Assembly: GCF_030144855.1 (NCBI RefSeq)
Contig: NC_082710.1
Coordinates: forward strand, 170,624,001-170,688,000
Direction: 5' to 3'
DNA length: 64,000 nt
DNA from: Hypanus sabinus
Taxonomy: Eukaryota
Positions within the stretch are counted from its first letter, which is position 1; every line of letters starts with the position of its first letter. The position numbers and the translations under genes were made by a program. This document shows positions 60,645 through 64,000 of the stretch, piece after piece. A model generated the notes under the pieces. That model had not been told where the DNA came from. It ran no database searches and saw nothing but the letters and a program-made list of their open reading frames with translations.

Positions 60645-63049
60645 AAACCACAGTCAATGAGAACCAGGTTGCAGTAAGATTAACCATTTACTGTTCACTC
60701 TTCACATTAACATATGGTTTATCTCGGCGTCTAATTCGGCGTTATCACTTACACCCGAACGAGAACGCTACAGTGAAAAAGCGTTGCTCTCACTGTGATT
60801 TCTAATGCTTGCAAAACAACTTCTGCTCGGGTCTGCCTTGTGGTGAGCCCCCACCCTTGCGTCGATCTCAAACCGGTCTTTTCCCACAAGATGCGGCGAA
60901 ACCGGATGTGACGTCATCACATGCCGATATATTTTACAGGCAATTAATATACTTTAAACACTTCTAATTCTAACTAGAAAATACTAACAAATAAATTACT
61001 AAGCAAAAATATTATAAACTAAATAACTGTCATAAAGACAACACACTCCCTGCCTGACCTTCGTAAGGTCACAATGAACAGAGTACAAAACTTAGTCTCT
61101 TAATCAGTCATTAGGTAGAAGTAGAATAACTTCTGTAACTGGCCTTTGGTAAATTTTCACATCGCCTTGGTCGGTGGTCTTCAACTCGACCTTCCTGACA
61201 TGTCCATCCCCACTAGGTATGTAGCAGTGATTCTGGCCATTGGCCAGCTGTTGCGGGCGATTTGCTTGTCCCTGAGCAGGACTAAGTCTCCAACTTGAAG
61301 ATTCCTACGGGGTTCTGTCCACTTTTGTCTGTGTTGCAACAAAGGTAGATATTCCTGTCTCCAGCGAGACCAGAATCGATTTGCCAGAGCTTGGACTTGT
61401 CTCCATTGCTTTGTGTACAAATCCTTGTCTCTCCTTGTGGAGGGGGAGCTCCTGCCTTCTGCGTAAGGAGCGTTGTTGGTGAAAGTATGAAGGGGTTTTC
61501 TGGGTTAGAAGACACAGGTAGGAATGGCCGTGCGTTTATAATGGCTGTGACCTCTGCCATTAGGGTGCACAGTACCTCGGGTGCATTGCTGCATCTCAGG
61601 TTTCTTTTTCCGGGTTTTTCGTAAAGACGTGAACCGCTTGACTGCCTGCTCTTTGTTATTTGGTGAGCGCTGGCGTGGTTCTCTGAAAGGCAATGGGGCG
61701 ACCCCATTCTTTGCTTCATCTCTGAAGACCTTGGTGTCCTTTGTTTTTAAGGAAATGGCATCTTGAGCTGATTGAGCAAGTTTATTACCATGCTCGGTTT
61801 GAATGAAAACTAAATGACCTAGCGTCTCGTCAGTTACTTTACGCTTGCTAACGTCTTGTTGTGCTTCCTTAGGGTACACCTTAGTGAGGCAGATCTTGGA
61901 ACAAGAACGGCTTGACTGACCTTGACCGCAAACTCCTGTACAGTTCGTGCTGACAACTGTTGTCCTATAGTGAGCCTCTCCCTCCCCACCGTCCTGTTGT
62001 GGGGGTGAAGGAGCGTTGTCGGTTCTTTCATTCTCAACTTCATCACGGAGTTGCGAGGATAAATTGTCTTCCTCGTATGGATGTGATGCAGTCGTGCCTC
62101 CCTGAGGTTCCTCATGGCTTGGGATGTTATCGAATATGTATGGAGGGGAAGAACAAGCCTACCTGTCTATTTGAGATCAGACATAGTCGATTGTGCATTC
62201 CAATCTGGTCCTTTCTGAAATAGATCTTACTTCGGCCAGATCATGCATTCCTTCAGCTTCTTCTATGTACTCTGCTTCCGCCTTGGCAGCTTCTTCTTCT
62301 CCTTCGAGCTGCAGCACTTGCAACTTTGTCGACATCCTTGCCATTTCCTTCTGGATTTCGGGTTCTCTTGCAGCCCTTTCCTTCTGGATTTCGGCTTCTT
62401 TGGCGGTCGCTTCCATTTTCAATTTTGCTAGTCGCTTGGCGTAGTCCACCCGCACATGGGCAGCATCTGCCTTTGCTCTTGCCTGGGCGGCCTTACTTGC
62501 TGATGCCCTACTGCCCTTGTCGCTGGGCGGCATCGACTTGATGCTGGATCGAGATGACATTGCAGCACTTGAAACACCTGATAATGTCGCTTTTTCACTG
62601 TAGCGTTCTCGTTCGGGTGTAAGTGATAACGCCGAATTAAACGCCGAGATAAACCATATGTTAATGTGAAGAGTGAACAGTAAATGGTTAATCTTACTGC
62701 GACCTGGTTCTCATTGACTGTGGTTTATCTCGGCGTTTAATTCGGCGTTATCACTTACACCTGAACGAGAACGCTACAGTGAAAAAGCGTTGCTCTCACT
62801 GTGATTTCTCATGCTTGCAAAACAACCTCTGCTCAGGTCTGCCTTGTGGTGAGCCCCCACCCTCGCGTCGATCTCAAACCGGTCTTTTCCCACAAGACGC
62901 GGCGAAACCGGATGTGACGTCATAACGTGCCGATATATTTTACAGGCAGTGAATATACTTTAAACACTTCGAATTCTAACTAGAAAATACTAACAAATGA
63001 ATTACTAAGCGAAAATATTATAAACTAAATAACTGTCATAAAGACAACA
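60645..63049 (-). mobile_element. Internally deleted BEL/Pao LTR retrotransposon inserted into the L1
   Basis: Direct repeats 60715-61043 and 62721-63049 (about 14 substitutions by hand count), starting TGTTG on minus; gag N-terminus (62560-62177); integrase C-terminus LCTLMAEVTAIINARP and WRQVQALANRFWSRWRQEYLPLLQHRQKW...GDLVLL, typical of BEL/Pao. Confidence 0.88.
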
Positions 63050-63051
63050 CA

Positions 63052-64000
63052 AACTGATAAAATTAATGCAGGGTAAGATGTTCATTTTAATGACTGATAT
63101 ACAGGCTGGGACTAATGCTGGCAGGTCTCCATCTATTAATATCTATTTTTTTCAAAATTAAAGAGTAATTTGTTTTAGCCACAGATGATAGGGAAGTATT
63201 AACTTTAATACCCAAGGAGTGGACCTCATTTGTCACCATAATTTGTAGAGGGAGAGACACCTTACTTTTATCTGTATTAATAAGCATCAGTGCTGATTTT
63301 GACAAATTAACTTTGTATCCTGAAAGAAATCCAAATTGCTCCAGTCTTTTTAAAACATAGGGGAGAGTTTGTTGAACATTTGCCATATAAACTAGCGTGT
63401 TATCCACGTAAGGTGATATCGAATGTGATGTTGTACCTATTGTAATAGGGGAGATCTAAGGACAGTTTCTAATTAACAGTGCAAGCAGTTCAATAGATAT
63501 AGTAAAAATTAAAGAAGATAAATGGTCCCCTTGTAGTGTGCCCTGTCCTATGTCAAATAACTCTGAGAAACCTCCTCCCACACATACCCGGGCTGAAGGA
63601 TGAGCATAGAATGTTTGAATCATATTGATAAATTTATCGCTGAACTTAAATTCTTTAAGAACTCTCCAAAGATATGGCCATTCAAGAGGATCTTTTTCCC
63701 CAAACGCTTTTACGGCATTTAGAAATAGCAGGCCACAGGCAGGTGGGATTTTATGTGTTGCACTCGGTATGTGTAAGAGCCGGCAAATATTATCAGATGC
63801 GAGACGCCCCTTGACAAAGCCCGTTTGATCTGGGTTAATTATTTTTCCAGCTACTGTCTCAAGTCTACTGGCTAAGACTTTGGAAAATATCTTGAGGTCA
63901 GCATTTATCAAGGAAATTGGACGGTAACTGGCACACTCCAAGGGGTCCTTACCGGGCTTAGTTATAACTGTGATCAGGGCTGTGTTTAGATCTCTATGGA
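63052..64000 (-). mobile_element. L1/Tx1-type LINE RT region (runs off the window)
   Basis: SYRPISLINADLKIFSKVLASRL...DQTGFVKGR...GTLQGDHLSSLIF; FSGYKVNLSKS-like motif. Confidence 0.88.

What the first reader, a model, noticed from the sequence alone, without database searches (positions are those of the whole stretch)
62588..62789. BEL/Pao LTR folds into a 69-bp hairpin covering the primer-binding position: candidate tRNA-independent self-priming
Seen: arms 62588-62656 and 62721-62789 are reverse complements (1 mismatch) around a 64-nt loop. On the element's sense (minus) strand the second arm ends ...GAGAACGCTACA|GTGAAAAAGCG, a CA LTR end at 62599 plus exactly 11 nt, just before the gag leader. 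There is no TGG-initiated tRNA PBS there; those 11 nt pair with CGCTTTTTCAC at the start of the first arm. Known: Tf1/sushi-group Gypsy elements self-prime using the first 11 nt of their RNA. I do not know of this being described for BEL/Pao, but cannot search. Inference: self-primed reverse transcription. The weak point is that I see no TATA ~30 nt upstream of the arm, so the TSS is unknown.
Basis: partly seen in the sequence, partly recalled or inferred. Interest (0 to 1): 0.72.

Follow-up and report, generated by a model that had tools for sequence, protein, structure and literature searches.

The report
Hairpin fossil of spliced retrotransposon primer
The 69-bp hairpin is real but sits in only about 1% of this jumping gene's terminal repeats and is likely a copying by-product; across the family, the 11 letters where copying would start match a sequence that exists only once an intron-like segment inside the repeat is removed, so host splicing likely builds the element's own primer in place of a tRNA.

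Summary
The hairpin is as described but is not the family's normal structure. Exact-pattern counts in the genome: 2965 LTR junctions carry a 279-nt GT-AG segment, 150 lack it precisely, and 32 are fold-backs like this one. Removing the segment joins CGCT to TTTTCAC, the exact complement of the 11 nt after the 5' LTR. No tRNA site is present. Support: a compensatory change (T:A 37, C:G 11, T:G 3, C:A 0 of 52 LTRs); a distant family with the same split design; 12 elements with an intron-less 5' LTR and an intron-bearing 3' LTR against 0 of the reverse; and integrated copies with 53-73 nt of reversed first exon right behind the 11 nt. Self-priming is therefore likely, with the primer made by splicing, and the hairpin is likely an integrated primer-plus-cDNA fold-back. 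No spliced RNA or start site was seen. The scan noted the same splice-junction primer in two other genomes; I had written this reading before looking. Ten literature searches found no report of it.

The parts
62599..63051 (-). 5' LTR of an internally deleted BEL/Pao element; intron-less, fold-back variant (TG at 63051, CA at 62599)
   Evidence: ends fixed by other copies with target duplications
62786..63051 (-). U3 plus first exon (266 nt), ending ...CAACGCT, where most copies continue with the donor GTAAGT
62779..62789 (-). 11-nt putative self-primer CGCT|TTTTCAC: the exon1/exon2 junction (62786|62785) left by precise loss of the 279-nt segment
62653..62778 (+). Inverted copy of U5 and R (reads like minus-strand strong-stop DNA); forms arm 1 and the loop; returns to the sense strand at a 4-nt microhomology (62653-62656)
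62599..62656 (-). Normal U5 (most of arm 2)
62588..62598 (-). Primer-binding position GTGAAAAAGCG, directly after the LTR end; not TGG-initiated
61046..62587 (-). Internal region: leader, gag start (ATG 62560) and fragments of gag-pol with three large deletions; integrase C-terminal piece matches DUF5641; polypurine tract 61046-61060
   Evidence: PPT
60645..61045 (-). 3' LTR with the same junction (60780|60779) and first arm, loop in sense orientation; U5 end and target duplication lost

Best explanation
The hairpin is likely a reverse-transcription fold-back product fixed in a rare LTR variant of a BEL/Pao family that likely primes its own cDNA with a junction created by splicing a GT-AG intron inside its LTR. 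Shown in DNA: the normal 670-nt LTR has exon1-end CGCT, a 279-nt GTAAGT...CAG segment, then TTTTCAC; the joined 11 nt are the exact complement of the 11 nt after the LTR; intron-less and fold-back LTRs have exactly this junction. Inferred steps: (1) the 5' LTR intron is spliced from the genomic RNA while the 3' LTR copy mostly is not, which is how about 94% of LTRs keep it; (2) the junction pairs with the primer-binding site; (3) the RNA is cut after ...UUUUCAC, by analogy with Tf1 (untested), releasing a primer that probably carries a first exon of about 60-75 nt; (4) plus-strand synthesis copies the unremoved primer, and the reversed first exon folds back on exon1/U3 or jumps to the leader, giving integration-competent hairpin ends. 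The window copy descends from such an event and went through at least one more round, since both LTRs carry arm 1.
For: Counts 2965/150/32. In the family LTR the best match over all GT-AG pairs is 11 nt at the real boundaries (2 of 2000 shuffled sites reach it); the best contiguous match is 7 nt; the donor is the only perfect GTRAGT of 62 GT sites. Of 52 intron-bearing 5' LTRs, 42 pair at all 11 positions, all 52 have at most 1 mismatch, and 49 keep GT..AG; the last exon1 base and site position 8 are T:A 37, C:G 11, T:G 3, T:T 1, C:A 0. A family at 25-48% protein identity has exon-end CACG|GTAATT, acceptor TAG|TTTTCAC and site GTGAAAACGT (10-nt junction match in L174, 2 of 2000 shuffles). Among 40 unpaired intron-less hits: 12 elements have 5' intron-less and 3' intron-bearing LTRs, 0 the reverse (sign test p = 0.0005), 9 of the 12 with perfect target duplications, and L308's LTRs are otherwise 100% identical. 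15 of 30 fold-back loci join the spliced junction to intron-containing sequence, with at least 6 different second junctions. L337 has the 11 nt plus reversed exon1 after a 3' LTR. In 6 of 39 fold-back junctions the reversed exon1/U3 stops early, at 14, 53, 60, 61, 64 and 73 nt; three of these sit in elements with intact target duplications. The predicted 11-bp duplex has mean probability 0.88-0.99 in 7 of 7 natural intron-less 5' ends, and the exon2 part is 0.0 in 7 of 7 unspliced ones. Tf1 cDNA is reported to keep a copied primer at its 3' end in about 50% of molecules (PMC11042837, passages).
Against: No spliced RNA, start site or cleavage was observed. The compensatory change separates subfamilies and is probably one or two events, so its Fisher p is inflated. 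The cross-family swap control did not discriminate: foreign sites also reach 10-11 nt at some GT because the 7-nt part is shared. In the second family L178 fails the test because its site is mutated. A third family has a contiguous 12-nt complement and needs no intron, and elements with both LTRs intron-less exist with target duplications, so splicing is not universally required. One of 4 intron-less copies (L050, mutated site) did not form the duplex. No clear branch point and no AATAAA were found in this family's LTR. Why the 3' intron escapes splicing is unexplained. The 73-nt cut-off for the first exon was chosen after seeing the data.
Confidence: 0.68

Rival explanations
1. The long hairpin itself is the family's priming structure.
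For: Very stable stem. Hairpin LTRs did integrate with target duplications (L286, L340, L078, L287, L288, L275, L278), and one arm variant recurs at several loci, so hairpin RNAs can be copied.
Against: 32 of 3147 junctions. At least 6 different second junctions. Arm 1 is a copy of the element's own U5. None of 16 intron-bearing two-LTR copies has it.
Confidence: 0.04
2. The primer is a host RNA, such as the 5' half of tRNA-Glu(TTC) cut in the anticodon loop; the LTR match is secondary.
For: All three families and one metagenome contig (L349) start the site with GTGAAAA. tRNA-Glu(TTC) genes in this genome contain TTTCAC or TTTTCAC at the anticodon loop. Half-tRNA priming is known in Ty1/copia (PMC6317226, passages).
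Against: Contiguous pairing is 6-8 nt against 11 for the junction; duplex -8.5 to -11.4 against -14.1 kcal/mol for this family. Site positions 8-11 follow the exon1 end, not the tRNA. The sequence behind the 11 nt in fold-backs is reversed exon1, never tRNA. The full tRNA set was not screened.
Confidence: 0.08
3. The element self-primes without splicing: the 7-nt exon2 part, or a bipartite 4+7 pairing that loops out the segment, is enough, and intron-less LTRs arise by template switching through the primer-binding site.
For: No RNA joint seen. A contiguous-primer family exists. The exon1 4 nt pair with the site at 0.45-0.75 in 4 of 7 unspliced folds. A double template switch on 4-nt and 7-nt homologies would give the same junction.
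Against: The lost segment has a perfect GTAAGT donor and a pyrimidine-rich CAG acceptor, with GT..AG kept in 49 of 52 LTRs and the same signals in a distant family. The 7-bp duplex is weak (-4.9 kcal/mol) and not predicted in unspliced RNA.
Confidence: 0.15
4. The hairpin arose after integration by a host replication template switch and says nothing about reverse transcription.
For: An inverted repeat with an inverted spacer and a 4-nt microhomology is the usual footprint of such switches (recalled, no call). The window copy's own 3' end is lost, so its target duplication cannot be checked.
Against: The first junction is identical in all fold-backs; it is present in both LTRs of several elements; spliced junctions are joined to intron-bearing sequence; full and solo hairpin copies have target duplications.
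Confidence: 0.05

Closest known systems
Tf1/Tf2 and the Tf1/sushi group (Ty3/gypsy chromoviruses), self-primed reverse transcription
   Same: A short primer-binding site directly after the CA of the 5' LTR pairs with the element's own LTR-derived RNA; no tRNA (10.1101/2022.12.06.519325 and PMC5341516, passages). Copied primer is retained on cDNA ends (PMC11042837, passages).
   Different: Different superfamily. The Tf1 primer is contiguous at the very 5' end of the mRNA; here it is split by a GT-AG segment and probably lies about 60 nt inside the RNA. The three-duplex 'pretzel' was not predicted; the duplex closes a junction with two hairpins. Tf2 controls primer presence by start-site choice; here it would be by splicing.
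Belpaoviridae / BEL-Pao LTR retrotransposons (ICTV profile PMC8742986, whole text)
   Same: LTRs, polypurine tract, Peptidase_A17 and DUF5641 domains; closest named proteins are in fishes, for example zebrafish at 75%.
   Different: The profile gives an 18-nt site for host tRNA-Arg or tRNA-Gly, and Achilles has a tRNA-Tyr site (PMC4580426, passages). This family has an 11-nt non-TGG site.
TAR-lineage Ty1/copia and Tcn1 elements predicted to self-prime; half-tRNA-primed copia lineages (PMC6317226, passages)
   Same: Shows that self-priming has arisen outside Tf1/sushi.
   Different: The passages seen list three primer types (whole tRNA, half tRNA, self-primer released by cleavage) and mention no splicing step and no BEL/Pao case.

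Membership tests
BEL/Pao (Belpaoviridae) | Direct LTRs with TG..CA ends and a polypurine tract | tested here: met
BEL/Pao (Belpaoviridae) | BEL-type Pol domains (PF05380 Peptidase_A17, PF18701 DUF5641) | tested here: met
   DUF5641 in the window; both in longer copies L061 and L075
BEL/Pao (Belpaoviridae) | Target-site duplication | tested here: met
   5 bp in 12 of 18 parsed copies; not checkable in the window copy
BEL/Pao (Belpaoviridae) | 18-nt site complementary to a host tRNA 3' end (ICTV description) | tested here: not met
   The site starts GTGAAAA or a one-base variant, with no TGG at the LTR end, in 52 of 52 LTRs. This is a descriptive trait of the profile; placement rests on the Pol domains.
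BEL/Pao subclade (Suzu, Sinbad, Dan and others) | Position in an RT/IN tree with named references | not tested
   No named reference proteins were in hand
Tf1/sushi self-priming group | Ty3/gypsy chromovirus Pol | tested here: not met
   BEL-type domains
Tf1/sushi self-priming group | Site complementary to the element's own LTR RNA, ending at the LTR boundary | tested here: met
   11 nt, but only across the junction
Tf1/sushi self-priming group | Primer is the first nucleotides of the mRNA | tested here: inconclusive
   No start-site data; integrated reversed-exon pieces suggest about 60-75 nt upstream of the donor
Tf1/sushi self-priming group | Three-duplex 'pretzel' structure | tested here: inconclusive
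   Not seen in the minimum-energy folds; pseudoknotted forms were not modelled
Tf1/sushi self-priming group | RNase H cleavage releases the primer | not testable with these tools
   Needs biochemistry
Spliceosomal GT-AG intron | GT..AG ends, U1-type donor, pyrimidine-rich acceptor | tested here: met
   GT..AG in 49 of 52; only perfect GTRAGT of 62 GT sites, while the acceptor was not among the top 4 by pyrimidine count in this family and was first in the second family
Spliceosomal GT-AG intron | Precise loss in retrotransposed copies | tested here: met
   150 + 32 exact junction matches
Spliceosomal GT-AG intron | Branch point, and spliced RNA observed | tested here: inconclusive
   No clear branch point; only contig-level runs were available
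Half-tRNA priming | Site complementary to a tRNA 5' half ending in the anticodon arm | tested here: not met
   6-8 contiguous pairs with two tRNA-Glu(TTC) types; other tRNAs screened only through the pattern

The most novel reading that the evidence does not exclude
A vertebrate BEL/Pao lineage makes its reverse-transcription primer with the host spliceosome: one LTR intron is spliced at the RNA's 5' end and kept at its 3' end, and the released primer is a capped RNA of about 70 nt that pairs by its last 11 nt. The hairpins, 5'-only intron losses and reversed-exon insertions in the genome are integrated fossils of that intermediate.
Probability: 0.55. Interest if true: 0.85.

Novelty: new variant of a known kind. 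Interest (0 to 1): 0.72.

Why it matters
Three primer types are described for LTR elements: whole tRNA, half tRNA and a contiguous self-primer (PMC6317226). BEL/Pao elements are listed as tRNA-primed with poorly understood replication (PMC8742986). A primer that exists only after splicing would make a host splicing decision a licence for reverse transcription, and would need the same intron to be treated differently at the two ends of one RNA. It also gives a DNA-only way to read RT intermediates: directional intron loss and integrated primer copies. Close relatives occur in zebrafish and other fishes, so the RNA predictions can be checked in existing data.

Tried and rejected
RNA evidence: no RNA holder on record was listed. 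Four contig sets guessed to be RNA, laid on an intron-bearing LTR, listed no joint skipping the intron; short contigs show presence, not absence, so this counts neither way, and the RNA-versus-DNA level of the junction stays unmeasured. The cross-family swap control was uninformative. The first two covariation scripts had faulty motif matching (6 rows; 16 rows with a mis-placed acceptor) and were replaced, which read 52 of 94 distinct sites; the other 42 have no readable intron-bearing 5' LTR (intron-less, fold-back, truncated or diverged). The 35-nt run for L347 was an aligner artefact; it is 14 nt. The metagenome scan gave 5 loci, only 1 reaching the LTR end and none with enough LTR to test. 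The tRNA family search gave only Lys, Thr, Cys and Gln genes in 30 loci, so no complete tRNA screen was made. The script stopped at the eighth unspliced copy; 7 are reported. A one-off rearrangement of this single copy was rejected. Arm covariation was rejected as evidence. A TATA box search by eye found none near either candidate start. The look-up by sequence among earlier findings gave nothing.

Full report
OBSERVATION. The inverted repeat is as reported: arms 62588-62656 and 62721-62789, 69 nt, one mismatch, 64-nt loop; z = -20.7 against shuffles. It lies in the 5' LTR (63051-62599, minus strand) of a 2.4-kb element with three large internal deletions, flanked by LINE-like sequence. The integrase tail matches DUF5641, and longer copies carry Peptidase_A17 and DUF5641, so it is BEL/Pao. 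The 3' LTR (61045-60645) has the same first arm but the loop in the opposite orientation, and has lost its end.

THE HAIRPIN IS A RARE VARIANT. The genome holds three LTR forms. The usual 670-nt LTR reads ...CAACGCT, then a 279-nt segment GTAAGT...TGTTTTATCAACAG, then TTTTCAC, R and U5. A 395-nt form lacks exactly that segment. The hairpin form also lacks it and continues into reversed U5. Exact patterns give 2965, 150 and 32 matches (the first pattern is 19 nt and the others 23 nt, so the rare forms are slightly undercounted). Of 20 two-LTR copies fetched, four of them chosen for being unusual, 16 have the segment in both LTRs, 3 in neither, and 1 is a fold-back. In 16 of 18 parsed copies the LTR is followed by GTGAAAAAGCG, in 2 by a one-base variant, and 12 of 18 have perfect 5-bp target duplications.

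THE SPLIT COMPLEMENT. Joining the two sides of the segment gives CGCT|TTTTCAC, the exact complement of the 11 nt after the LTR. Over all GT-AG pairs in a natural LTR the best match is this one (11 nt; 2 of 2000 shuffled sites reach it), the best contiguous match is 7 nt, and the donor is the only perfect GTRAGT of 62 GT sites. Of 52 readable intron-bearing 5' LTRs (of 94 distinct sites), 42 pair at all 11 positions and all have at most one mismatch. The last exon1 base and site position 8 are T:A 37, C:G 11, T:G 3, T:T 1 and C:A 0. This follows subfamily lines and is probably one or two events, not 52. A distant family (25-48% protein identity, no LTR similarity by blastn) has exon end CACG, donor GTAATT, acceptor TTTCTTGTAG|TTTTCAC and site GTGAAAACGT; L174 scores 10 nt (2 of 2000 shuffles) and L178, with a mutated site, fails. 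A third family has a contiguous 12-nt complement (0 of 2000 shuffles in 2 of 2 copies) and no split match, so self-complementarity is the shared trait and the intron is not universal. A cross-family swap control did not discriminate, because the 7-nt part is shared. Folding natural intron-less 5' ends gives the 11-bp duplex at mean probability 0.88-0.99 in 7 of 7; in 7 of 7 unspliced ones the exon2 part is unpaired with the site. In an earlier set 3 of 4 formed it.

FOSSILS OF THE INTERMEDIATE. (a) Direction of intron loss. I fetched 40 exact intron-less hits that had no exact partner nearby, from the first 100 of 150 listed. Twelve are 5' LTRs whose 3' LTR keeps the segment, none is the reverse, 5 are intron-less at both ends, 2 have no readable partner and 21 are solo LTRs (20 with perfect target duplications) (sign test p = 0.0005). 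Nine of the 12 have perfect target duplications, and L308's LTRs are otherwise identical, so the difference dates from integration. This fits an RNA spliced at its 5' end and unspliced at its 3' end (inference). (b) Fold-backs. All share the first junction, but the 30 loci show at least 6 second junctions, and 15 of 30 join the spliced junction to intron-containing sequence. Several full and solo copies have target duplications, so they formed before integration. L337 has the 11 nt and reversed exon1/U3 after a 3' LTR, where no template has a primer site. (c) Of 39 junctions, 33 run through all of reversed U3 and 6 stop at 14, 53, 60, 61, 64 and 73 nt. L333, L335 and L336 have matching target duplications with such a piece behind the 11 nt. 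These look like copies of a primer that carries a first exon of about 60-75 nt; the cut-off is post hoc and the number small. (d) The loop is flipped in the 5' LTR and sense in the 3' LTR in the window, L274 and L284, and sense in both in L286; a primer covalently joined to strong-stop DNA would read as the flipped form (inference).

MECHANISM. Shown: LTR anatomy, precise loss, complementarity, covariation, asymmetry, fold-back junctions. Inferred: splicing of the 5' intron, duplex formation, cleavage after the 11 nt by analogy with Tf1, copying of the unremoved primer and fold-back. Unexplained: why the 3' intron escapes splicing; where the RNA starts and ends (no AATAAA and no clear branch point). 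The tRNA rival is weak: two tRNA-Glu(TTC) types give 6-8 contiguous pairs as 5' halves and no fold-back carries tRNA sequence, though the shared GTGAAAA start could be a trace of such an ancestry (speculation). RNA data did not decide the point.

WHAT IS KNOWN. The ICTV profile (PMC8742986, whole text) gives an 18-nt tRNA site for Belpaoviridae and calls replication poorly understood. The BEL/Pao survey PMC3118150 has no occurrence of 'primer', 'PBS' or 'tRNA' (term counts and passages), and the Sinbad paper PMC554778 none of 'PBS', 'primer binding' or 'tRNA'. Achilles has a tRNA-Tyr site (PMC4580426, passages). Self-priming is described for Tf1/sushi, Tcn1 and TAR copia (passages of 10.1101/2022.12.06.519325, PMC5341516, PMC6317226, PMC5443660), and Tf1 cDNA often keeps the copied primer (PMC11042837, passages). 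PMC3601003 passages added nothing on BEL priming. Ten searches found no paper on self-priming in BEL/Pao or on a primer made by splicing; two searches returned zero papers. Subscription journals, Repbase reports and supplements were not seen and may bear on this; the Levin and Butler papers are known to me only as citations.

EARLIER SCAN NOTES. Two notes on other genomes report a splice-junction primer in BEL/Pao families. They are unchecked AI notes and are not counted as support; my reading was written, before that look-up. The directional intron loss, the integrated primer copies and the explanation of the hairpin are not in the lines I was shown.

VERDICT. Observation confirmed; interpretation partly supported. 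The hairpin is most likely a by-product (about 0.85), the family most likely self-primes (about 0.8), and splicing most likely makes the primer (about 0.7); jointly 0.68. New variant of a known kind; interest 0.72.

Noticed in passing
L280 (also L049, L258; G000:C27, about 162.641 Mb): A complete histone H2A reading frame sits between the LTR and the leader of a family copy, and its stop codon overlaps the first 4 nt of the primer-binding site: likely a host mRNA captured by template switch at the priming site.
   Followed up: partly
L161, L163-L166, L169, L171: A third BEL family has a contiguous 12-nt complement of its primer site about 200 nt inside the LTR, a donor-like GTAAGA about 255 nt upstream of it, and tandem repeats of the LTR-end/site junction in L161 and L165.
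   Followed up: partly
L349:55-90: A metagenome contig with 58% Pol identity has a similar U5 end and a site starting GTGAAAAG; the LTR is cut off.
   Followed up: partly
L003:1513 (run X1, organism A): A loose contig end reads reversed exon1 right behind the 11 nt, so the fold-back junction may exist in another organism too; one contig only.
   Followed up: no
L297, L317, L073: Tandem elements sharing an LTR, like the tandem Tf1/Tf2 insertions in PMC11042837.
   Followed up: no
L327:4711-5381 (reverse strand): A solo LTR with target duplication has the spliced junction followed by part of R, then most of the intron, R and U5.
   Followed up: no
window 57679-58233 (+): Open frame with an immunoglobulin V-set domain, probably a host exon.
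   Followed up: no
window 59806-60372 and 63087-63998 (-): LINE-like pieces on both sides of the element (RVT_1 match at 63456-63998); the element likely inserted into a LINE.
   Followed up: no
window 58645-59229: Tandem repeats of about 78 nt and 36-40 nt.
   Followed up: no
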